Below, one piece after another: positions 8,990 through 55,018 of a DNA stretch of 64,000 nt. Within the stretch, counting starts at the first letter, position 1, and the number at the start of each line of letters is the position of its first letter. This DNA is from Lytechinus pictus (lineage: Eukaryota). The DNA lies in contig NC_087251.1 in NCBI RefSeq assembly GCF_037042905.1, positions 36,892,001 through 36,956,000 of the forward strand, in the 5' to 3' direction. The notes under the pieces were generated by a model that worked only from the letters and a program-made list of their open reading frames with translations, had not been told where the DNA came from and did not search any database. Both the position numbers and the translations under genes were made by a program.

Positions 8990-9595
8990 GGGACCCGTTG
9001 CATAAAAGTTACTATTATATAAATTTTGCCATTCAATGGTAACTTCCATGAAATCTTTGACTTTGATTGGCTGTTGAGTAACGTTACTATGGTAGAGAAG
9101 CGTATCCTCTTCAAAATCCCCGTCATAACATTCAAGAGCATCCAAGGAAAGTCCCCTTCATACATCGCGAGCATGATCAACACCTACCAACCCTTCCAAT
9201 CACTTCGGTCATCCAACAAGAATCTTTTAGTTGTTCCCAAGGCAACCTCCCACATCCATGGCGACAGAGCCTTTTTCAGTTGTGGCTCCAACACTCTGGA
9301 ACTCCTTTAAACGAGCTCTTAAGACATATCTCTTCTGTAAATAGTATGATTTTTACAGTTAATATGTCCATAGTTAAGTTGGTATTTTAGATATGTAAGG
9401 TAGTTACGTTTGATGTTTAGTTATGGAAGGTAGTTAAGTTGATAAGTGAGTTTATTTTATTAAGTTAAGTAGTTAGGTTTCGTGATGTAAAGCGCTTAGA
9501 TAAATTTTGATAGGCGCTATATAGATATTTAATTATTATTATTATAGTTACCATTGGATGGCAAAGTTATAATTTTAACTTTTATGCAACGGACC
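8990..9595. mobile_element. MITE (ccgttgcataaaagtta termini) split by the L2 insertion
   Basis: Left ggacccgttgcataaaagtta...tttgccattcaatggtaact and right agttaccattggatggcaaa...taacttttatgcaacggacc are inverted repeats. Confidence 0.7.
9096..9544 (+). mobile_element. 5'-truncated L2/CR1-group LINE 3' end, inserted inside a MITE
   Basis: RILFKIPVITFKSIQGKSPSYIASMINTYQPFQSLRSSNKNLLVVP...GDRAF resembles the L2 ORF2 C-terminus; tail tgtaaagcgcttaga...ggcgctatata...(att)n. Confidence 0.8.
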
Positions 9596-22075: not shown

Positions 22076-24788
22076 GGTTCTAGGACAACTACCCCCTGGA
22101 CAATCACCCCCCGGACAATTACCCCCGGACAATTACCCCCCGAGGACAACTACCCCCCGAGGACAATTACCCCCCGGACAATTACCCCCCGGACAATTAC
22201 CCCCCGGCCAATTACCCCCCGGACAACTACTCCCCGGACAATTACCTTCAGAAAATCCCCCCTTCTCTCCAGCATCAATGTTAGAATAAGGCGGGACCCA
22301 TTGTAAGTTTTGGTCGGTGGCACAGGTTTCCGAAATATTTTCTACTTTATCTTACGTTAATAACTTTTTCTTTCTCTTTTATATTGCTCTTTCTCCTGTT
22401 CTCTCACTTTCTTCTTTTTTCCCTTTTTGTTTTTGTTTAGCGGCGCCATCTTCATCATGAAAAATGGGGGGGGGGGGGGCTTGCACCCGAAACCTCCCGT
22501 TTGGCTATGCATATATACATCAGAAAATTTGTAAACTGGCCCTCATTCTAAGTTTTCATAGAACAATTGAACACGATTAGTCATAATAATCACATATGCT
22601 GGATATCCCTGATTCCAACTGATCTGATTTTTTTTAATATTTATTTTGGGTTTAATTTCAGGTAAGAAATCAGGCAAATAGATAAAACGTTAAAAAACAC
22701 CTTTATAGGTAGAAAAATTGAAAGTCGATAACTCAACTATGAACACTAACATTGTCAAGTAGACCTATAAATCTGTTTTTTTTAACAGTTCAACTAACAA
22801 GAAGCTAAGAATTATGAAACAATTGGTGCACATTCCAGATTAAGATGTGGCTTTATAACTTAATACAGTTAGCTAAAAAACTTTATGCAAAGATAATACA
22901 CACAAGAACACCTTGCAAATTACAAGGTGTTTTTGTGTGTATTATTCTTGGGTGAAAGCAATTAAACATTAAAGAAGGAAATTAAGTACCAAATTTACTA
23001 AATTGTAAACAATATGACATAATCAAATACAGTGTTTTTTCTATACAAATTGGCAATCATGATATTATACAATTCGTTTAAGGTGCATTTTAAGGACGGT
23101 TTGTAAGAATTTATAAAGAAGTAGGCCTATGCAAATCAAATAATGCGACCGAGCACCGTGAGCTGAAATATTAATATTTAGACCATAAAACGGACATTTT
23201 ACAGAGCACTTGAAAAATCAATTTGTAAATTAAAAAATAATGAAAGCTCGATATCCGAGATGAAATATGTTTTGTTTATTGACTTCGAAACTTGATATTT
23301 TAAGCTCCATATCAGCCTTTATTGAGCAAGATATTAATCTCATCGAAAAAGCAATGCGAGCGCGAAGCGCGAGCGGAAAATACTTGATATTCCGGTATGA
23401 AAATGGTGAATTTGAGCACTATCTAAAGCATTGTGTATGGAAATTGTGAAGTGGGTGTGGAAAGCACTTAATAAATGATGCGAGTGTGAAGCGCGAGCTG
23501 ATATCTTCATTATTATTTTGACCTAGGACCTGGACATTCTAGGACTAAGGACATTTAGTCATCATATGAAAATGATGACAACTTTCTTATTCCTCTTCCT
23601 GAGCGCGATATGAAACATATGAAACTGTGATATTGTCGATATTCTTTTCTGAAAAGGGACAATTTAGTCATTAAGAATTCATGAAAATTTTATTATCATA
23701 TTTATTAATGTAATAAGCCTAAATGAGTGAGTAAAATGTGTTGACACTGAGGCCTGAAAACTGGATATTTTAAGCACTTTTGTAATCATGAATAGGATTT
23801 GTGAGTTGATATATTTTTAACAAAAATGCGAGCGCAAATCGTGAGACGAAATTTTTGGTAAACTGTCATAAAAGGGGGGTTTTAAGTAGTTTGTTATATA
23901 ATTTAGCAAATCAAATAATGCGAGCGCATAGCGCAAGCTGCAAGTTATATTCACACCATAAAACGGACATTAAACAGAGCACTTAAAAATCAGTTTGTAA
24001 ATCAAACAAAATTATGAATAATGTCCGAGCTGAAATATGCTTTGTAATATCGACTTCAAAACTTGACATTTTAAGCTACATATCAGCCTATTTAGCAAGA
24101 TGTGTATCTCATCGAACAGGCTATGCGAGCCCGAAGCGCGAGCGAAAAAATTAATATAGTGACATGAAATATATTTTTTAATCATTTTCCAAGTCATCCC
24201 CTGACCTTTTTTTTTCACTCGTCTCCCTCTTATTTTAACTCTTATTTTTCCTCCTTTCTTTCCCCTTCTTTTTCTTTTTTTCTTTCTTTCCCCCTTTTTT
24301 TCTTCATTTTTTTGCTCTGCCGATAGGGGGGGGGGGGGGCGGGCCCCTCGCCCCCTGGATCCGCCTATGGATGGAGCTCAATTTTACAGCTTTCTTACGG
24401 CGTATGTTTGAATCCAAGATACTCGAGAATGCCTTGAGTACTTCTTACGTCAAACGTACGGCCGACGTATGACTCTGTGCACTCCCTTTGTCTAGGGGGT
24501 AATTGTCCAGGGGGGTAGTTGTCCGGGGGGTAATTGTCCGGGGGGTAGTTGTCCGGGGGGTAATTGTCCGGGGGGTAGTTGTCCGGGGGGGTAGTTGTCC
24601 GGGGGGTAATTGTCCGGGGGGTAGTTGTCCGGGGGGTAATTGTCCGGGGGGTAGTTGTCCGGGGGGTAGTTGTCCGGGGGGTAATTGTCCGGGGGTAATT
24701 GTCCAGGGGGTAATTGTCCTCGGGGGGTAATTGTCCGGGGGGTAGTTGTCCGGGGGGTGATTGTCCAGGAGGTAGTTGTCCTGATACC
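22076..24788. mobile_element. Foldback (TU-like/MULE-like) non-autonomous transposon with subterminal 15-bp tandem arrays
   Basis: Termini GGTTCTAGGACAACTACC / GGTATCAGGACAACTACC(rc); (GGACAAYTACCCCCC)n at 22083-22247 and inverted at 24495-24782; 9-bp TSD tggttatat at 22067-22075 and 24789-24797. Confidence 0.88.
23140..24369. repeat. Internal repeat with dispersed GCGAGCGCGAAGCGCGAGC motifs and a GGATCCGCCTATG end, nested in the foldback element
   Basis: Motif recurs at ~23356, 23480, 23920, 24125; ~770-bp internal duplication (23140-23380 vs 23915-24150). Confidence 0.6.
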
Positions 24789-32400: not shown

Positions 32401-34149
32401 TTGACACATTATACTTTTTTTTTGTTTTTTTGTTCTGAACCGCTTCACGTAAGTTGCGTCGCAAGTATAAAGCTGCCATTTATTTTGGTTCTTCCGGCAA
32501 TGCACAGCAGCTTACTGCAGTTTCCTCTCTCTCATTACATATAAATTCACCAAAATACGTCTTCAAAAGTCAGTAAAAGGAATCTTCGTTCCCATTTGAA
32601 AGATGATAGAGTTTATAACAATTTCACGCTCCTTGAAACTGTTCTTAAAGCGTAGATATGCGAAACTGCTGCAAACGTCCTTGTTGTTAGAGGCTTTCTA
32701 AGCCATCACACGTCTTGATTTATTGCTCGTTCTCTTGTAAGTCTTTTTGACGCTTTGAAATATGAATCTGTATCCTATTTGTATTCATTTGATGAGACGT
32801 TGATGTGGGTGGAAGGAAAGTAGGGCACGTCCAAATTGGAAAATGACAAAACGGTAGAATCGAGATAACGGGGATGGTCTTAAATAAAAGAAGAGGAGAA
32901 ATGAGAATAGGGAACGAGAGAGGGTGAGATTGAAGGGGGGGGGTGAAAAAAAAAAGTATAGTGAAGGGGAAGCAATGAGAAAGGGAAATCAAACCACTGT
33001 ACATCACCAAGATATGCAGTAGTAGGGGTCTTCCCGCGAGGCTGGTTATGACTCTCGTCTTTTCAATCTGAGGGACGTGGGTTCGATTCCAAGCCATGAC
33101 GTGGTCTCCTTAAGTTTAAACTTAAGAATAGGCTAAGCCGAAAGTTTTCAATTGACGCGGACAAACATCTTGATGAAAGAAAATACATTATGAGAAAATC
33201 TGCCTCCTGGATCTTCCGGCTATCGACATGTTAATGGTGATTGTGTTAATAATAGTTTTGGATATAATATCTTTTTCATAAAAAAGTAATAAAAGTCAAT
33301 GTGTCAATGCATTTTAGCCAATCAGAATTAGTTTCCCATATTTATTTTTCATGATTTCATGATTAAAGACGATAATTTGGATAATGATTTTAAATGAGGT
33401 CTATGTATTGACTCATTGGCTTGTATTATCCATCGTTTCTCATGTCAATCCATGGACTTTTTTCAGATGTCTTTTTCAACATATTCGGTGAAAAGGCATA
33501 TTCTCGTTATGTCTGAATATGCCATTTTCGTAAACCAGTCGATACAAATCAGTCACTCTACCTCGGCACTTACGGTTCATCCTTGAAATTGAAACACGTC
33601 ATGATCGTGACGGCTCCAACCAGATGACTTATTCATTGACATACTTGACACATTTCATTGATGAAACGAACCAAATCCCCCTAAAGTAATCCATTCCCAT
33701 CGGTGCCACATAAAAAAGATAATGTTTAGAACATTATTGGCCATGAGCCCCTGGATGCGATCCAGGATGATGCTAATGTTCATCTGAGAAACATGGATGT
33801 GACTCAGACGTGAATCATCATGTTCTATTCAGAAGGTTTTCCAACATTTCTCTAAAATACTTTTGAATTAATTAAGCTACAGTCGCACCAAAGAAACCGA
33901 CTCCAAACCGACCGATGATATGCCATTTGATATATCGTATGAGCTTTGATCGGTCTGGGGTCCATTCCCTTGGTGTGGCTGACTACTGTAGCGTTAGTTT
34001 CTTATAAAGCAACAGTCACACCAACGAGACCGACCGATGATAAGCCATTCGATATATCATAATCGCTTATTTCGATCTTGGGTTGGTATTTGATCGGTGC
34101 GACTGTCGCTTTATCGCATTTGGCGAGGCGCCGTGGCCGAGTGGTCTAG

Positions 34150-37287: not shown

Positions 37288-37368
37288 GTGGCAGAAAACC
37301 TCATGAACCCTTTCGGCGAAGATGATGATGATTTCGACATGAACTGGATTGTTGATAGAAATATTGAG
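37288..37368 (+). CDS. BEST: Bestrophin exon (81 bp, Ca2+ clasp)
   Basis: cctgcag acceptor, GAG|gtaaga donor. [27 protein letters not shown]. Confidence 0.98.
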
Positions 37369-37601
37369 GTAAGATTGAATCATTCATCAAAAGAGCATTC
37401 AATCAGAAATCACATATTCTATCAACTTTGTAAAATTGAACTTTGGTCACTGAGAATATCATAAACGTATTAATAACTAATTGTGAGTCTTTTGATTTTT
37501 TAAGTTGTCCTGCCTCACGCATGCCTCGATTTATCTTCACTCATTCGCAAACCAGTTTTTATATATAGGCCTGTATGCTGTATTTTCATATTAATTGTAC
37601 C

Positions 37602-37971
37602 CAGGGGCGGAAATCTCTCCCAAAAGGTAGGGGGGACAAGGGGCTGGAAAATTTGACAAGCATAAAAAAGGGTTATCACCCAAAATTTAAGGTCATTTCA
37701 ACGAAAATAAATTTGACAAGCAAAATAAAAAGGTTATCACCCCACATTTAAGGTCATTTCGACGAAAATCAATTTGACAAGCAAAAAAAAAAAAGTTATC
37801 ATCCCAAAAGTAAGATCATCTCGTCCTAAAATACATGTTTTATTTCGATTTTGAATGATGTATTGCTTAACATCATAAAAGGCCACAAATAGTAGGGGGT
37901 ACATTTGATAGTGTGTCCCCCCTACTATTTTGAGTAGGGGGGACACTTCCCCCCTGGGATTTCCGCCCATG
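37602..37971. mobile_element. hAT-like MITE
   Basis: TIR CA(G/T)GGGCGGAAATC; 8-bp TSD attgtacc at 37594-37601 and 37972-37979; three internal ~60-bp tandem units. Confidence 0.82.
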
Positions 37972-38223
37972 ATTGTACCTCAAGGTTTGCTGCTTCATTA
38001 GAATAATACAACGAACAGGCATATACACTTGCTTTGGTTTACTTTGGTGTTGAGGCTTGAAGCTTCTGCTTCATATATATAAGAAATTAGATAAATGCAA
38101 ACAACTTGTGGCAACTCTCTTGTAAATAATAAACAGTGAAAGAAATTGAAAATTCGAGAATAATAGATGCGAAGTTTCACTCAAGGTGCCTCAGAGCTGT
38201 CATCGATTCTTATTCAAAGGTTG

Positions 38224-38229
38224 AAAAAA
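38224..38229 (-). terminator. RNA polymerase III terminator (T6) of the tRNA-like gene
   Basis: aaaaaa on + strand immediately adjacent to the discriminator base. Confidence 0.65.
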
Positions 38230-38301
38230 TGCCTCCGCCGGGAATCGAACCCGGGTCCCTGGCTCTGAACGCCAATGCCTTAACCACTAAACCACAGAGG
38301 C
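38230..38301 (-). tRNA. tRNA-like gene with TCA anticodon (opal-suppressor-like; not the long-arm tRNA-Sec type), carried in a foldback repeat
   Basis: Minus strand GCCTCTG TG GTTT AGTGGTTA AGGC A TTGGC GTTCAGA GCCAG GGAC CCGGG TTCGATT CCCGG CGGAGGC A folds into a full cloverleaf with A and B boxes; followed directly by T6. Confidence 0.7.
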
Positions 38302-38481
38302 GGGCCAGCAGTTAGGCTAGACCGAGTTCAATTAACCGGCAGGCAAATTTCCAACAATGGATGACAGCTCTGAGGGACCTTGAGTGAAGCTACGCATCTA
38401 TTATTCTCTCATTTTCATATCTTTCACTATACATATATACATATATGTGTAAAGTTATACATGTACAACAGCTTTGGCAAC

Positions 38482-38486
<5 letters not shown>

Positions 38487-38549
<63 letters not shown>

Positions 38550-38588
38550 ATATACATGTATATATATTAGTATATACTGTATATATAT
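38487..38588. repeat. (TA)n microsatellite; others at 39325-39514 and 48554-48684
   Basis: Direct reading. Confidence 0.9.
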
Positions 38589-39324
38589 CCCATCACTCCT
38601 TCCATGCGTAAATATTGTTGTTACATCACTCTAATTCAGATTGAAAATTTATTTCTGTCTCGTAATGTTTATTCGATCCTAACTAATGGTCATCATCATC
38701 GGAGCGAGCAGAATATAAAGTGACAAGCAAGTCCATTTCTATAATCATTATGATAGCATTACACAATATGATATGATGTGATGTGATTTAAGTGACAGAC
38801 AGGAAAGAAATATTGAGGACCGCATCATTGCAGATGTACTATCTTTATGTAATGACGAAAATATAAAATATGATAGCAGTCATGTCCAATAGATTTTAAT
38901 AGGCGAAAATTGGAAATGTAATTTTACCTTATTAAAAAAAATCTCCTACACACGCACAATAGGTTTTTTTATATTTGATATGATTTTTCATTTTATTAGA
39001 TTAATTTACCAGCAAAAGTCACATGTTTACATGTTAATGAAACACATGCAAGAAAAATATGAAATTATGAACTTCCAACCAACCGAGCCAACACACCGGT
39101 GTTGCCCACAGAGTAACAGTTTATGCAGTGTAGTTGTATTATAGGCCCTCTTAAATTATAACACACTTATTCACTATACTCATTACATTCTGTCAATAGT
39201 TTTGGTATACCAAGTAACAAAACAGATACCTTCCTCTCAAAGACATTCTATTTTCTATTTTCTCTATACAATAAACTTATAGGCTAATTCTTCCTCTGTA
39301 TTATTAGTAGTTATCTAAAAAGGT

Positions 39325-39363
<39 letters not shown>

Positions 39364-39436
39364 ACACACACACACACATATATATATATATACATATATT
39401 TGTGTGTGTGTGTGTGTGTATATTATGTATATACAT

Positions 39437-39474
<38 letters not shown>

Positions 39475-39482
39475 TTATACAT

Positions 39483-39514
<32 letters not shown>

Positions 39515-40591
39515 CAAGACTACCCATTTATTACACGGTAAATTAGTGTCAATATACAATGTTGGACAGTTCGATTCCCTTTTAAGCCCTCCGTTTTGGT
39601 ATATAAGCAAAACAATGCAAATGGCGACAGCCATGAGGTGTTTCACTGAATCAAAACATGACAAAAAATAAATTATTGCAGTTCTTTAGCTCCATCCAAG
39701 TCATGCATACATGGAATGGACATTAAAAAATGGATTTTAATTATGTTTATGTGACGTACTCTTTGACTGCATGCACTCTCGTCAACGTTACGTATCACGA
39801 CGTCATTGGTGATGAATAGGTTTATACCCCAGTAATGCGGGAAAATCCTTCGCAGATTTTGGCGGTGCGGTCGTTGTGATGAGCTCGCAGCGCCTGTATT
39901 GTAATTTAGGAGGCAAAGCTATATCTCTTGTACATAAAGAGAGGGCAGGCTTTCTTACGGCTATCCCAGATGTGCTTTATTAGCTTGGGAGGGGGATTTG
40001 GGAAGGATTGTCGCCTTCTCGATGTAAGAACACTCAAGCTTCAAGGTTACCAAACAGTGCATTCCTCTAAGATGAGACCTAATGCAATAAGGTCTATGGA
40101 AAAACAACAACCCAAGTGGGATTATGTGTGTTGCCGTTCACACAGAAAAAAAAAAACGTGTTTGCTCACAAAGAATGGTGTTAGGTGTGAACAAAATCTG
40201 TTAATTCTTGTCTCTTTTTTGTGATACTCATGATTATTTGCAAATTTATGACTCAAAATGATAAACAAAATGATAATTAAAAACCAAATAGTAAACAGTA
40301 TTGCGATAGACAAAGATTATTTTCCTTAAAAAAAAAACTGTCATGCTAAAGCACGATGCTTAACATTATATCAAGTTAACGTCATGCAGTGTGATGCAGC
40401 ATTGATGTAATCTTTTGTGGATATAATCAACGACTGGTATTCAGAGGAGCGTATTCGAATACGAAAAAAATCTTTCTAAAAACACATACATGTACAATCA
40501 TGTATTAAATGCCAAGATGCCTCTGGAATATCTCTGAATATGTCAGATGTAATATAAGTGTGAATTTTCAACATTTTCTCTCTGTTTACAG

Positions 40592-40743
40592 ACAAGTTTC
40601 ATGGTTGTTGACGAGCTATACGAGGTGAGCCTTCCTATAGTTCGAGATCGTCACTTCTCAACACGGCACCCCGATATACCTTATACAAATGCTGCAGTAA
40701 AGAAGAAAGGGAAGCCATGGTTAGGTTCAGCTAGTAAAGTCAA
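40592..40743 (+). CDS. BEST: Bestrophin exon (152 bp, proximal C-terminus); not in the ORF track
   Basis: tttacag acceptor, AA|gtgagt donor. TSFMVVDELYEVSLPIVRDRHFSTRHPDIPYTNAAVKKKGKPWLGSASKV (VDE, PYT, F/WxGS motifs). Confidence 0.93.
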
Positions 40744-41561
40744 GTGAGTATATACAATAGTTCCCAAAAAAGAATTGTCTCTCGATGAGAAAAATGTCAG
40801 CCAGAGTGGGGGGGGGGGGATTTTTTTTCTCCTGCTGTAAGTCTACCAATTAATGTTTTTCGACAGTTAAACATCATACTATCTGCTTAATTGGCATTGC
40901 GAGATCTTTTGTAGAAATTCCATTTAAACGGAGATCTGTTTTCCTTCCTTTTTTTATATTCTATGATTCTTTTTATTTCATTTGTTCAGATTTGCTTGAC
41001 TAGAATAGTTTCTATCTATATCACAGTCTCATAATTATTACTGAATCATCAGTCATACACTTTTATTTCTTCAGAGTCAAATTTGATTCGGAATGATGCC
41101 AGCTTGGGGTCATCTTTATTCCCAGTCAAGTGACTCAGTTTATAATTTAAAGTGACTAGGAATATGGCAGCTGAAAATCACTTCATTCCGAGTCAATTTT
41201 GTTTGAGTCAAAGTGACTACCTTGCGAGTTACTTGCCTCTAAACAGGGTTTACTCCAAATTTGACTCTTTAGCAATATGAGTGTATATTACTAGAAATCT
41301 ACGATATCGGTATTGTTGCTCATTATAACTGCTTTGCCTGTGATAATCGTCTGCATCAACAAAAACGATGCCTGGGGAGCGTCGAATGTTTTATTCGAGA
41401 AGTCCATTTTTTCCAACAGTTACAATAGTAACAGTGTTCTCAGCCAATAAAGATCAACTAAATTCGTCAGATCCGATAACTTGTCGGACAAAAATTTGAA
41501 TGAAACGCTCCCCAGAAATAATGTGTAAGACTAATCGGCGGTTATTTCATATCTTCCTTAG

Positions 41562-42444
41562 ATTATCACGTCAAGAGATGGCGTTTACCAATATGCCAAA
41601 CAAGGTCTTCACTGAGGATGACGAGTGCATCACCAGTCGTCTCTCGTCCAAGAAGCGAGGAGAAACCACGGGCAAGGGCGGCGGGACTAATAACGGAAGT
41701 TTGAGCAAAGTGAGCAAAAGCGGCGGTGGAAACAACCACGCGTCTTCGAGCAACAACCACGGCTTGGAAGAAAAACGAAGTAGAAGTAGCAGTAGAAACG
41801 AAGGCTCCACTCCTAGAGTGGTACACAGGACAATGAGTCAGGAGGACTCGCAGTATGACCACTATGCATCCATTCCCAACACACCACAAATACCTCAAGC
41901 CGACTATGAATCCGTCACCCGACGGGGGCAGTCATCGGCGACGCGCGGCAGTAACCATGGCAACAAGTACACTAGTGAACCGGAAGTACATCGCAGACTC
42001 AGTAAATCAACAGAGGAGCGAAAGCGATTGGCGAGTGACCGACAGCACCCCTCGAGACATCATAGAAACACTCAGTCTCTTGAAAAAGAAGGGAACTATA
42101 GCTCGGGACATGAAAGGGCTGGTAGTAGTGCTGGCAGCGGTAGTGGCGGCGGCGGTAAAAACAGTGGTGGTGACAGGGGTAAAGGTAGTGGTACCGGAAA
42201 TGGTGGCAGCGGTGGGAACTACCACCGATCCAGTAGTCAAGAGAGAGGAGGCAACTATCATGCAACACATGAACGAAATAGTAACTACCACAATGGGTAT
42301 CATTATGATGATTACCAAGGCACCGGGAGTAATGAAGGTCGTCAAGTACCGGACGACGTCAAGGAATGTCGTGATCGGGATGACGACGGCGTGATCGATG
42401 CGAGAGATGTCGACATCAATGCTCTCAACGAGTCCATCATTTGA
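41562..42444 (+). CDS. BEST: Bestrophin terminal coding exon: ~293-aa G/S/N/R-rich disordered tail ending ...NESII*
   Basis: ttccttag acceptor in phase 2 joins the previous exon (AA+A = Lys) into the long ORF 41500-42444; TGA at 42442-42444. Confidence 0.88.
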
Positions 42445-45400: not shown

Positions 45401-46108
45401 GTGAATCAATTTCTTATAAAAGTAAGGAAGTTATCGTGGATACAGAATTAAATTAAGCAATTCAAAATGGAGATGAGTATGATATTGTTGCTATGACAAT
45501 GAATCAAATGTCAACGTTATTGGGTATCATTACAAACCACTTTATCTCTATGCAATAGTATTTCAGCATCCAACTCAATGCTCCTCTCTTTTAATTTCGA
45601 GTGTCTGTGTTTAAAATATTCGAACTTCAACAGCGATTTGATGAAAATTGTGAGAATTAATTAATACATTTATTTAAGAACATATCAGGTTGTCAATAAT
45701 AATATTTTATTTTTCAAGGAGAGAAATTGTATTACCTGTTATAGTTTTGTCTCGAACTTATCTGATTTGTCATCAACAATTCAGATGTTCTAAATCATTG
45801 CTACAAAATTGTATACGTTTGAATTAATGTTAAGCAGTCTTTTCAAGTCATGTATTTGTGTATATGGATTAGAGTAATGAATTTAAAGGGTTTTAAATCA
45901 TCACTGAAATATTGTTAGATTTTGTTTTAATTCTCCAATATCATACCCCTGATGTGTGTGTTATATTTTACCACTATGGTTGATGTGTAGAAGAGAGACG
46001 TTTGGAATTGATTATGTGCAAGAAGGTTACAAAACCCTTTAGTTGGGGGTCTTTGTAAATGTGAATGTTTAGTTTACTGATCCGAATTATGAGTCGGACT
46101 CCGTTCCT

Positions 46109-46289
46109 ACACTTTAAAAACGTTACATGTTAAGCAACCCTGTTTAAACCCTTCACTCTAACAACTATTGTTTAAAGTTTTAAACAAGTTGTTTTAAAAA
46201 GTTTAAACAATTGTTTAAAAGTTTAAGCAATAGTTGTTAGAGTGAAGGGTTTAAACAGGGTTGCTTAACATGTAACGTTTTTAAAGTGT
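46109..46289. mobile_element. Near-perfect palindromic MITE
   Basis: About 62-bp perfect arms acactttaaaaacgttacatgttaagcaaccctgtttaaacccttcactctaacaactattg and its reverse complement. Confidence 0.8.
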
Positions 46290-47456
46290 TATAGTATCAC
46301 TTTAATCTTTATCAACTGATTCCAACCTGCACTCGACGCAGGTGAGGTAAATGGGTAGGCCTACAGGCAGGAAGTAATTCCTATAAAAAAAAAAAAAAAA
46401 GCTGTGAGCACCGGAATCGGTAGCCGAGCTTAGCCGGGGTAATAAATTATAGGATCGCCTCGAGCACCTATCAAGTTGAATACGTGCGCTAAACAAATAC
46501 CTCCCTATATCATCATTCCTTTCTAAATATCGGAAATGAAAATAAAGACATAATTCAGGCATATTGACTCAAGAGCATCGGGTCCGTTGGTGCCACACCC
46601 CGTTCCGATAAAAAAAGGAAAACACCAGTTCCATTGTGACACAGAAAAGATCCGACTCTAAAATACATCGGGCCATATCCCGGTTAATTCATGACCCGGA
46701 AAGGATGTGTACCAACAGACCCAGTTTCCGGATCAAATTGACTCGCATTTTTTAGAGTGTATATATTTTTCAATTTATGAAATATTTGTAGTCCAAGTGT
46801 AATTTTTATTAGGCTCGAATTAATAGCATACTGATGCTGTGGATGATCATGAAGATTTATGATGAGAGTACTATTATTCTTTATTGAAGGCAATTGTGTG
46901 GTATAATGATAGCGAAAGATTAATCTAGACCTGGGGTAGTATAGTGTCCATCTTATTCATCAAATACCAAATATTTCAACCCTGTCGTGAATGGCTGTAA
47001 AATATGTTATTATTATTATTCAATGAAGTTGGAAGAATTTTTTTTAATAATGATGATAAGAATGACACAATAAATGTCAATTAGTTTGGTCCAGTAGATC
47101 TGTTTTGAAGAGTGAAGATAGGCCTACTAGCATTCCGATAGAAGGTGGATTAAAATACTTGTAGTCTAGAGTTAAACTTGACTTTCATCATAAGAATACA
47201 AAAACAATTTGGTTTCAGGTATTGCTGAAGATAATGTTGGATAAGTTCAGTCAAATAAGTTTTCTTCATAAGTGGAAGTAATAAACCTTTATATTCTAAA
47301 GTTCTAAACAATATTCTACAGTATAGCAACTTTACAGCTGATATTTCACGATATGCATAATATTGTCCATGTAATAAAAATGAAAATTATATATTTATGT
47401 ATAGAAAACCGTCCTGTCAACGCAACCTTTGAAAAAAATGTTTGTCACTTCAAACC

Positions 47457-49756: not shown

Positions 49757-49994
49757 TCGTGTGACACTAAAATAGATTTAAAAAAGAAGGGCGCTGATTT
49801 TAATAAACACCCATCCTGACCGCGTTCATCATGTTTATGTGAAGTATTATTTGATTATTACAGTTCCGAGCATATTTTATTGTGTCAGAAGTGAAAGTGG
49901 CTGTTTGTTGTGCAATTCGTGATGGCAAATATGAAGAATTATTAGCAAGCGAAGATTCCTGAGGCTGAGGCAGTGAGGGTGACTGAGTCTGAGG

Positions 49995-50605
49995 TAACCC
50001 AGAGAGCTCCAGCCCGCGTAGCGGGCTGGAGCCCAGACGCTCAGTGTGCAAACGGGCATTCAGGTGAGAGTACCGTGAAGTTTGGTCAAAATAATTTTGA
50101 TAATACATAATTAAAACAGAAATTAAGCACTTACCACGATTGTATGGATGATAGTCTAACGAGTGGCAGTTTCCTGACATCGAGGCACAGACTGGAACCT
50201 CAAAAAACGATCAGTTCTGTCGCGGTAGCTCTCTTTCAGAATTCAACACAAAATGGCCGATCGAGACCGAGGCTAGTATAGCACTAGCGCATATAGACTT
50301 TGTCAAATTCGCGCATGCGCCCTACACCCTCTCGAACGGCCATTTTGCTATGAATTTTGAAAGAAGGAGAGCCACCGCGACAGAACTGATCGTTTTTTGA
50401 GGTTCCAGTCTGTGCCTCGATGTCAGGAAACTGCCACTCGTTAGACTATCATCCATACAATCGTGGTAAGTGCTTAATTTCTGTTTTAATTATGTATTAT
50501 CAAAATTATTTTGACCAAACTTCACGGTACTCTCACCTGAATGCCCGTTTGCACACTGAGCGTCTGGGCTCCAGCCCGCTACGCGGGCTGGAGCTCTCTG
50601 GGTTA
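49995..50605. mobile_element. MULE/Mutator-type palindromic MITE (611 bp)
   Basis: 232-bp inverted arms, identical as far as I can read (49995-50226 / 50374-50605); 9-bp TSD agtctgagg at 49986-49994 and 50606-50614. Confidence 0.9.
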
Positions 50606-50794
50606 AGTCTGAGGGAGTTGCATCTTCGTCAGGTGACCGGAAATACCAGGCTTGAAAATTACATTCGTTATAAATTATAGCCTCACTTTGCAAGCTAGAG
50701 CATTGCAGTGATGGAAGTTGCAGAAGAGCTGGATTTTGGAGAAATGTTCCGAAAGCATGGTCAATGAAACTAGACAGGAGTCAAGTGACTCAAG

Positions 50795-54742: not shown

Positions 54743-55018
54743 GGGGACATTGTGGTCTAGTGGTTACGACTCTCATCTTTCAATTAGAGGGACATGGGTT
54801 CTATTCCAAGCCATGGTGTGTTGTCCTTCAGCAAGAAATTTACCAACATTTTGCTGCATTCAACACAGGTGAGGTGAATGGGTACCTGGTAGAAATTTAT
54901 TCCTTGAAAGAAGTGTGCGTAACAGCTGCACTGCTAAAGCCAATGCATTACTGATACTCTAGAGCACTTCTGATATATCGCTCTATAAGAAAGTTTCATT
55001 ATTTGTTCATTATTATTA
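54743..55018 (+). mobile_element. tRNA-derived SINE; related fragments at ~33040-33110, 46321-46512, 53530-53700
   Basis: tggtctagtggtt A box, gggttc(g/t)attcc B box, core gctgcactcaacccaggtgaggtaaatgggtacc, (att)n tail. Confidence 0.7.

What the first reader, a model, noticed from the sequence alone, without database searches (positions are those of the whole stretch)
38135..38428. Intact UCA-anticodon (anti-UGA) tRNA gene packaged inside a foldback element in a bestrophin intron
Seen: a 72-nt minus-strand sequence folds into a full cloverleaf with a 7-bp acceptor stem, a 5-bp anticodon stem with loop GT-TCA-GA, a 4-nt variable loop and a perfect T arm. It has A/B boxes and a T6 terminator directly behind it, with no SINE body. 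It is enclosed by ~74-bp inverted repeats, with a tggcaactct direct repeat outside both arms (38109, 38475) and (TA)n nearby. Known: tRNA-Sec has a long variable arm and extended acceptor stem, so this is not tRNA-Sec. Its 3' half matches the Gly(TCC)/Glu type (GACCCGGGTTCGATTCCCGG). Inference: a non-autonomous DNA element that carries and may spread a stand-alone Pol III tRNA-like gene, potentially an opal suppressor or regulatory tRNA mimic. G32 and two G-T pairs in the D stem argue against an efficient translational tRNA.
Basis: partly seen in the sequence, partly recalled or inferred. Interest (0 to 1): 0.72.

Follow-up and report, generated by a model that had tools for sequence, protein, structure and literature searches.

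The report
tRNA-bearing repeat joined head-to-head
The stop-codon-reading tRNA look-alike is real, but it is one module of a roughly 400-base mobile repeat, present here as two truncated copies joined head-to-head in a TA run, and nothing shows that it works as a suppressor tRNA.

Summary
The 72-nt cloverleaf with TCA, A/B boxes, T6 and the 74-bp inverted arms are real and lie in a bestrophin intron. The foldback reading fails. Contigs from four public runs show that the repeat extends about 54 bp beyond the left arm and occurs elsewhere as a head-to-tail unit of 398 bp. The right arm is an inverted, truncated second copy, and tggcaactct lies inside the repeat, so it is no target-site duplication. 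Tandems, an inverted truncated copy, a one-sided tail and a TA target match Penelope-like insertions; the mobilising element was not identified. Two G-T pairs are decay of this copy; a sister family differs by two two-sided stem changes and shows no anticodon change in the rows displayed. Added here: a family-wide 54-nt antisense leader pairs with the whole tRNA except its anticodon arm (8 G-U, 0 A-C), suggesting a two-state RNA. Suppression is untested and unlikely (G32, no fitting identity elements). The scan reported this family several times before on other DNA of this genome; I found no published description in eight searches.

The parts
37288..37368 (+). bestrophin exon upstream of the element (AG/GT bounded)
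   Evidence: Pfam PF01062; boundaries read
38073..38081 (.). short (AT)n run at the left end of the insertion; left half of the presumed target
   Evidence: sequence; family contigs begin at 38081-38086
38082..38355 (-). copy 1: about 274 bp of the 398-bp unit, truncated at 38355
   Evidence: tables 5 and 8: pieces span 38081/38082-38355; joint 38355 back to 38081 with 123 letters between
38082..38134 (-). one-sided extension ('tail') of copy 1, holding the first tggcaactct
   Evidence: covered in 4 of 4 runs (table 2); absent beyond the right arm
38135..38208 (-). left arm: body of the unit downstream of the tRNA
38224..38229 (-). T6, Pol III terminator-like run directly behind the tRNA
38230..38301 (-). 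tRNA-like gene, Gly/Glu type, anticodon TCA at 38268-38266, G32, A discriminator; A box 38294-38284, B box 38251-38241
38302..38355 (-). 54-nt 5' leader, antisense to D arm, variable loop, T arm, 3' acceptor strand and T6, without a complement to the anticodon arm
   Evidence: 40 Watson-Crick and 8 G-U pairs; 0 of 500 leader shuffles fold as well; part of the family (X7 record 26)
38356..38428 (+). copy 2: inverted, truncated piece of the same unit (right arm)
   Evidence: 66 of 74 identical to 38135-38208; X6 contigs laid here carry tRNA-end and terminator letters before 38356 (table 7, agreement 0.65)
38429..38450 (.). degenerate TA run at the right end of the insertion
38451..38490 (-). about 40-bp homologue of the tail, holding the second tggcaactct; probably a fragment of a more abundant sister family
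   Evidence: aligns to 38084-38124, 0 of 2000 shuffles reach the score; summed depth in X1 about a hundredfold above the arms
38487..38588 (.). (TA)n microsatellite
40592..40743 (+). next bestrophin exon, closing the intron
   Evidence: translation and splice sites read; assignment by resemblance to recalled bestrophin sequence, not scanned against Pfam

Best explanation
The stretch is an insertion of a non-coding, about 398-bp, tRNA-bearing tandem repeat that is copied through RNA by the reverse transcriptase and endonuclease of a Penelope-like element (PLE) and lands in TA microsatellites. Shown: multi-copy unit, tandem period, element ends at TA runs, inverted truncated second copy, one-sided tail. 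Inferred: a nick in the TA run primes copying from the RNA 3' end (38082) through the tRNA to 38355; synthesis then turns back, perhaps helped by the leader hairpin whose base lies exactly there, and gives the inverted 73-bp piece with 11 nt missing. The tRNA module is a Gly- or Glu-derived Pol III cassette whose fold is kept at family level; in RNAs that begin further upstream it is predicted to be locked by the antisense leader with only the anticodon stem-loop exposed. UCA is an inherited loop change, not a decoding adaptation.
For: Tandem period 398 bp: joint 38355 to 38081 with 123 letters between in X1 (2 contigs), X6 (1), X17 (1), and X17 record 9 holds 38214 at 256 and 38081 at 521. 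Family sequence covers 38077-38134 in 4 of 4 runs. None of the 32 pieces listed (of 1067) crosses 38355/38356, and opposite-strand joints in X1 fall at varied places. Both ends touch TA runs. Craig et al. 2021 (PMC8557442, passages) describe 5' truncation, partial tandems, an adjacent inverted 5'-truncated copy, a 30-40-bp tail at one end, (TA)n targets and non-autonomous tandem derivatives. Of 10 stem substitutions shown, 8 keep a pair on their own and 9 with the partner change; pairs 6-66 and 28-42 differ on both sides between the two families. Leader duplex -68.4 against -50.0 kcal/mol on the other strand. G32 in 0 of 32 ordinary tRNA calls.
Against: No autonomous PLE was found or searched and no shared 3' end was tested; no genome is held. 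The tail is 54 bp, longer than the 30-40 bp in the paper. T6 inside the unit means Pol III cannot make the whole unit, so the source of the copied RNA is unexplained. No run covers the unique flank 37975-38025, so no empty site was seen and the runs are not shown to be the same species. Only 40 of 109 variant rows were displayed, phase between variants is inferred from matching contig counts, and 25 of 42 possible stem transitions would keep a pair by chance. 123 nt of the unit were not seen. Fold predictions lack modifications: even with no leader the D and anticodon stems are not favoured.
Confidence: 0.68

Rival explanations
1. A tRNA-containing satellite-like unit spread by DNA routes (rolling-circle Helitron/Helentron-type transposition or circular DNA and recombination), with the inversion made locally by replication template switching at the leader hairpin.
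For: Tandem units; junction at the base of a strong hairpin; Helentron-associated non-autonomous elements carry tandem repeats, hairpins and microsatellites (recalled, not tested).
Against: Strand-biased G-U pairing (8 to 0) points to an RNA stage; the combination of inverted truncated copy, one-sided tail and TA target is the PLE signature.
Confidence: 0.17
2. A non-autonomous cut-and-paste DNA element (MITE or foldback) whose 74-bp arms are transposase-bound ends and which carries the tRNA as cargo.
For: Arms 66 of 74 identical; whole 306 nt folds with z -18.6; TA-rich flanks could hide a TA duplication.
Against: Family homology runs 54 bp past the left arm; relatives continue with other letters after 38355; the arm is an internal part of a tandem unit; tggcaactct is internal.
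Confidence: 0.07
3. Whatever its vehicle, the module yields a mature, charged tRNA that reads UGA at a level that matters (opal suppression, possibly serving the element or its PLE partner).
For: Intact A and B boxes, T6, full cloverleaf; family consensus repairs two wobbles; no anticodon change among displayed rows; counts by kind exclude one in X7 (2 contigs) and exclude a change of A36 in X17. Some Naiad PLEs have in-frame UGA, though in spiders and clams and with SECIS elements.
Against: G32 (0 of 32 controls); no long variable arm for Ser/Leu and no G3-U70 for Ala (identity rules recalled); a leader of 10 nt or more is predicted to break acceptor and T stems; a fixed anticodon follows from common descent alone.
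Confidence: 0.06

Closest known systems
Penelope-like elements and their non-autonomous derivatives (Naiad, Chlamys, MRC1; Craig et al. 2021, PMC8557442, abstract and passages seen)
   Same: Truncation, head-to-tail tandems, inverted truncated copy at the 5' end, tail at one end, (TA)n target, no clear target-site duplication, no hammerhead in the part seen.
   Different: Carries a complete tRNA gene with T6 and an antisense leader; no ORF; no shared 3' end with an autonomous PLE tested; the passages seen report no tRNA module.
Animal non-LTR retrozymes (Cervera and de la Pena 2020, PMC7229834, passages seen; Li, Clavereau and Pollet 2026, 10.64898/2026.07.22.740005, abstract, introduction and part of methods seen)
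   Same: Tandem non-coding units of 150-450 bp, highly self-paired RNA, proposed PLE derivatives.
   Different: Defined by a type I hammerhead; Rfam finds none in the 275 bp held.
Helenus and Ajax (Kojima 2024, PMC10886601, passages seen)
   Same: Mobile repeats whose tRNA-like parts are mis-called as tRNA genes, including all tRNA-Sup-CTA calls in some rust fungi.
   Different: Those are LTR elements with primer-binding sites; here a tandem unit with inverted insertion in TA runs.
tRNA-derived SINEs
   Same: Pol III A and B boxes from a tRNA, multi-copy, next to simple repeats.
   Different: The tRNA is internal, with family sequence upstream and T6 directly downstream; units form tandems and inversions. 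SINE definition recalled.
tRNA-Sec
   Same: UCA anticodon only.
   Different: 7-bp acceptor, 4-bp D stem, 4-nt variable loop, A discriminator, internal A box.

Membership tests
tRNA-Sec | long variable arm, extended acceptor and D stems, G73 (features recalled) | tested here: not met
   ARAGORN drawing; best Rfam model in the clan is RF00005
MITE / foldback DNA element | inverted repeats form both ends of the family | tested here: not met
   family sequence extends to about 38081 and the arm is internal to a 398-bp unit
MITE / foldback DNA element | target-site duplication directly outside the ends | tested here: not met
   tggcaactct at 38109 is inside the repeat and 38475 is in a 40-bp homologue of the tail; a TA duplication hidden in the runs cannot be excluded
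tRNA-derived SINE | tRNA-like head at the 5' end, read through into a body | tested here: not met
   54 nt seen plus 123 nt inferred of family sequence upstream; T6 directly behind
non-autonomous PLE derivative | head-to-tail tandem copies | tested here: met
   398-bp period in X1, X6, X17
non-autonomous PLE derivative | inverted truncated copy at the 5' end with a tail at one end only | tested here: met
   junction 38355/38356 and 54-bp extension; tail longer than the 30-40 bp described
non-autonomous PLE derivative | insertion in microsatellite | tested here: met
   TA runs at both ends of this one copy; one X17 contig has a TA run joined to arm sequence (table 7)
non-autonomous PLE derivative | 3' end shared with an autonomous PLE | not testable with these tools
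   no genome held
non-LTR retrozyme | type I hammerhead ribozyme in each unit | tested here: inconclusive
   no ribozyme family in Rfam scans of the window; 123 nt of the unit not held
functional suppressor tRNA | pyrimidine at 32 and identity elements for a synthetase | tested here: not met
   G32 against C 21 and T 11 of 32 control calls; identity rules recalled
functional suppressor tRNA | mature, charged RNA that reads UGA | not testable with these tools
   needs tRNA-seq and a reporter
Helenus / Ajax | LTR pair with primer-binding site | not tested
   whole unit not held

The most novel reading that the evidence does not exclude
A ribozyme-free class of PLE parasites in which a tRNA gene and its own antisense leader form a two-state switch: short Pol III transcripts fold as a tRNA with a UCA anticodon, long transcripts hide the tRNA from processing enzymes while still exposing the UCA stem-loop. 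Both folds would be under selection, and the many copies could supply a UGA-recognising RNA to the cell.
Probability: 0.2. Interest if true: 0.8.

Novelty: new variant of a known kind. Interest (0 to 1): 0.42.

Why it matters
Practically, it explains spurious Sec or suppressor tRNA calls in this genome, as Helenus does in rust fungi. Mechanistically, how PLEs without hammerheads produce their RNA template and their tandem and inverted insertions is open (Craig et al. 2021, passages); a small, multi-copy, tRNA-bearing unit with a built-in hairpin at an inversion junction is a compact test case. If the tRNA-like RNA were charged and read UGA, it would be a mobile stop-codon suppressor in an animal, which is unlikely but would be striking.

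Tried and rejected
Whole-genome search: no genome held. Other copies in the window: none by BLAST apart from TA runs; two SINE-like heads at 33043 and 54761 belong to another family. Pattern for the tRNA 5' half: 0 matches in metagenome contigs and 0 in viral contigs, so no full copies could be aligned and no covariance model was built. Sequencing runs: no RNA holder listed; X6 and X17 are only guessed to be RNA and are contigs, so nothing is said on expression. I laid 4 of 24 listed runs. Summed depths are not copy numbers. Earlier findings by sequence, near, relatives and by the words for the antisense leader: nothing shown. The family's GTCT D strand and a one-base slip of the Glu loop favour Glu; G1 and a single change at 36 favour Gly. 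Relaxed ARAGORN calls and miRNA hits below gathering score were treated as noise. Paper searches listed no description of this element; Repbase, Dfam, GtRNAdb and most subscription papers are not covered, and no supplements were read.

Full report
Observation. ARAGORN finds one tRNA in the window, 38230-38301 on the minus strand, anticodon TCA, score 117.5; Rfam gives RF00005 at 56.8 bits. The drawing has a 7-bp acceptor stem with one T-G pair, a D stem with two G-T pairs, a 5-bp anticodon stem, G32 and a 4-nt variable loop. T6 follows at once. The arms 38135-38208 and 38356-38428 agree in 66 of 74 columns. Four of five translated pieces hit Pfam Bestrophin, and the element lies in the intron 37369-40591 of this plus-strand gene, antisense to it. 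It is not tRNA-Sec by any structural feature (features recalled). Earlier notes call the host a sea urchin; I did not test that.

What the element is. No genome is held, so I laid contigs of 4 of 24 listed runs (three organism codes) on 37975-38484 at 80% likeness: 859, 94, 9 and 39 records were laid. No run covers 37975-38025, so none is shown to hold this locus or to be the same species. All four cover 38077-38134, left of the left arm. Pieces run from 38081-38086 to 38355 (X7 record 26 spans 38082-38355), and after 38355 relatives go on with other letters. A joint from 38355 back to 38081 with 123 letters between occurs in X1 (2 contigs), X6 (1) and X17 (1); X17 record 9 gives the same period, 398 bp. 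X6 contigs laid on the right arm carry tRNA-end and terminator letters before 38356 (agreement 0.65). None of the 32 pieces listed, of 1067, crosses 38355/38356. So the window holds about 274 bp of a tandem unit and, head-to-head with it, a 73-bp inverted piece of the same unit. Both outer ends touch TA runs. The first tggcaactct is inside the unit; the second lies in 38451-38490, a direct homologue of the unit's tail (0 of 2000 shuffles), at a summed depth in X1 about a hundredfold above the arms, probably a fragment of a sister family. It is not a target-site duplication.

The tRNA across copies. Of 109 variant rows 40 were shown, 14 in the tRNA, 10 in stems. C12 is read in 70, 16, 2 and 9 contigs, and C6 in 29, 15, 2 and 3, so two of this copy's wobbles are decay. 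A second, much deeper set of contigs in X1 and X17 has A66, C27, C28, A37, T41, G42 and G46. Between the families, pairs 6-66 (C-G against T-A) and 28-42 (T-A against C-G) change on both sides; phase is inferred from matching counts, not seen on single contigs. Eight of 10 stem changes keep a pair alone and 9 with the partner change, but 25 of 42 possible stem transitions would do so by chance, so this is suggestive only. No anticodon change is among the rows shown. The counts by kind of change leave no room for one in X7 (2 contigs) and none at A36 in X17; minority changes may be hidden in X1 and X6. G32 occurs in 0 of 32 ordinary tRNA calls from 25 of 110 fetched loci. Gly or Glu ancestry is undecided (a human Glu-TTC sequence with the same T arm was seen in one passage of PMC12217144).

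The antisense leader. The palindrome continues inward. The 54 nt upstream of the tRNA pair with its D arm, variable loop, T arm, 3' acceptor strand and T6: 40 Watson-Crick and 8 G-U pairs and no A-C mismatch; -68.4 kcal/mol on the tRNA strand against -50.0 on the other; 0 of 500 leader shuffles fold as well (mean -45.7, sd 3.4). At DNA level 1 of 2000 shuffles reached the alignment score. Forcing the cloverleaf costs about 28 kcal/mol. The leader has no complement to the anticodon arm, which stays paired (probability 0.89). With 5 nt of leader the acceptor stem holds (0.94), with 10 nt it falls to 0.28. Variants at 38313/38282 and 38317/38277 would change both sides of two leader pairs, but they do not always occur in the same runs. 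The G-U bias was counted on a fold chosen on that strand, and unmodified tRNAs fold poorly in this model, so the two-state reading is an inference. The junction at 38355 lies at the base of this hairpin; turning back there would copy from 38219, and the window lacks 11 of those bases.

Mechanism. Craig et al. 2021 (PMC8557442; abstract and passages) describe PLE insertions as 5'-truncated, partly tandem, often with an inverted truncated copy at the 5' end, a 30-40-bp tail at one end and, for Naiads, (TA)n targets and no hammerhead; they also note non-autonomous tandem derivatives. The window fits each structural point, with a 54-bp tail. I took the PLE lead from earlier notes and tested its structural points. 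I put 0.68 on a PLE-mobilised, tRNA-bearing tandem element, 0.17 on DNA-level spread of a satellite-like unit, 0.07 on a MITE or foldback, and 0.06 on suppression that matters. Not shown: the autonomous partner, the source of a full-length RNA despite T6, an empty site, expression.

Comparison and novelty. It works like a non-LTR retrozyme (PMC7229834, passages; 10.64898/2026.07.22.740005, first quarter of the text) but no ribozyme was found in the part held, so it is not filed as one. Helenus (PMC10886601, passages) is the precedent for repeats that yield false suppressor tRNA calls. Eight paper searches listed no description of this element; repeat databases and supplements were not seen and may hold it. 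The scan's own notes report the same or sister families at least eight times in this genome; these are unchecked and are not counted as support. The antisense leader did not come up in a word search of those notes, whose summaries alone are visible to me.

Verdict. Real sequence, wrong vehicle, function unproven: a new variant of a known kind, interest 0.42.

Noticed in passing
window 37602-37972: MITE-like element in the same intron: short inverted ends, an 8-bp direct repeat (attgtacc) on both sides as in hAT elements (rule recalled), and 2.8 internal copies of a 61-bp unit.
   Followed up: partly
window 33043-33114 and 54761-54831: Two 83% identical decayed tRNA-derived heads with A and B boxes; the one at 54750 continues into a body recalling Deu/Nin-type SINEs (recalled). 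Unrelated to the finding.
   Followed up: partly
window 22082-22246 and 24488-24781: Arrays of a 15-bp unit in opposite orientations about 2.2 kb apart, resembling the outer domains of a foldback element.
   Followed up: no
window 46108-46290: Long near-perfect hairpin (inverted repeat of about 70 bp) that scores against plant miRNA models below their gathering scores; probably a MITE.
   Followed up: no
window 49800-50210 and 50390-50680: Two open frames begin with the same 70-odd residues, 590 bp apart, which points to a recent direct duplication.
   Followed up: no
window 41500-42444: Long Gly/Ser/Arg-rich final coding stretch of the bestrophin gene with no Pfam match.
   Followed up: no
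window 9023-9390: Short frame resembling the 3' end of an L2/CR1-type LINE (resemblance recalled), with inverted 50-bp ends at 8995 and 9592.
   Followed up: no
loci L001-L080: Most matches of 58 letters gave no tRNA call and sit near contig ends; they look like one abundant tRNA-derived SINE family from animal host DNA in those metagenomes.
   Followed up: no
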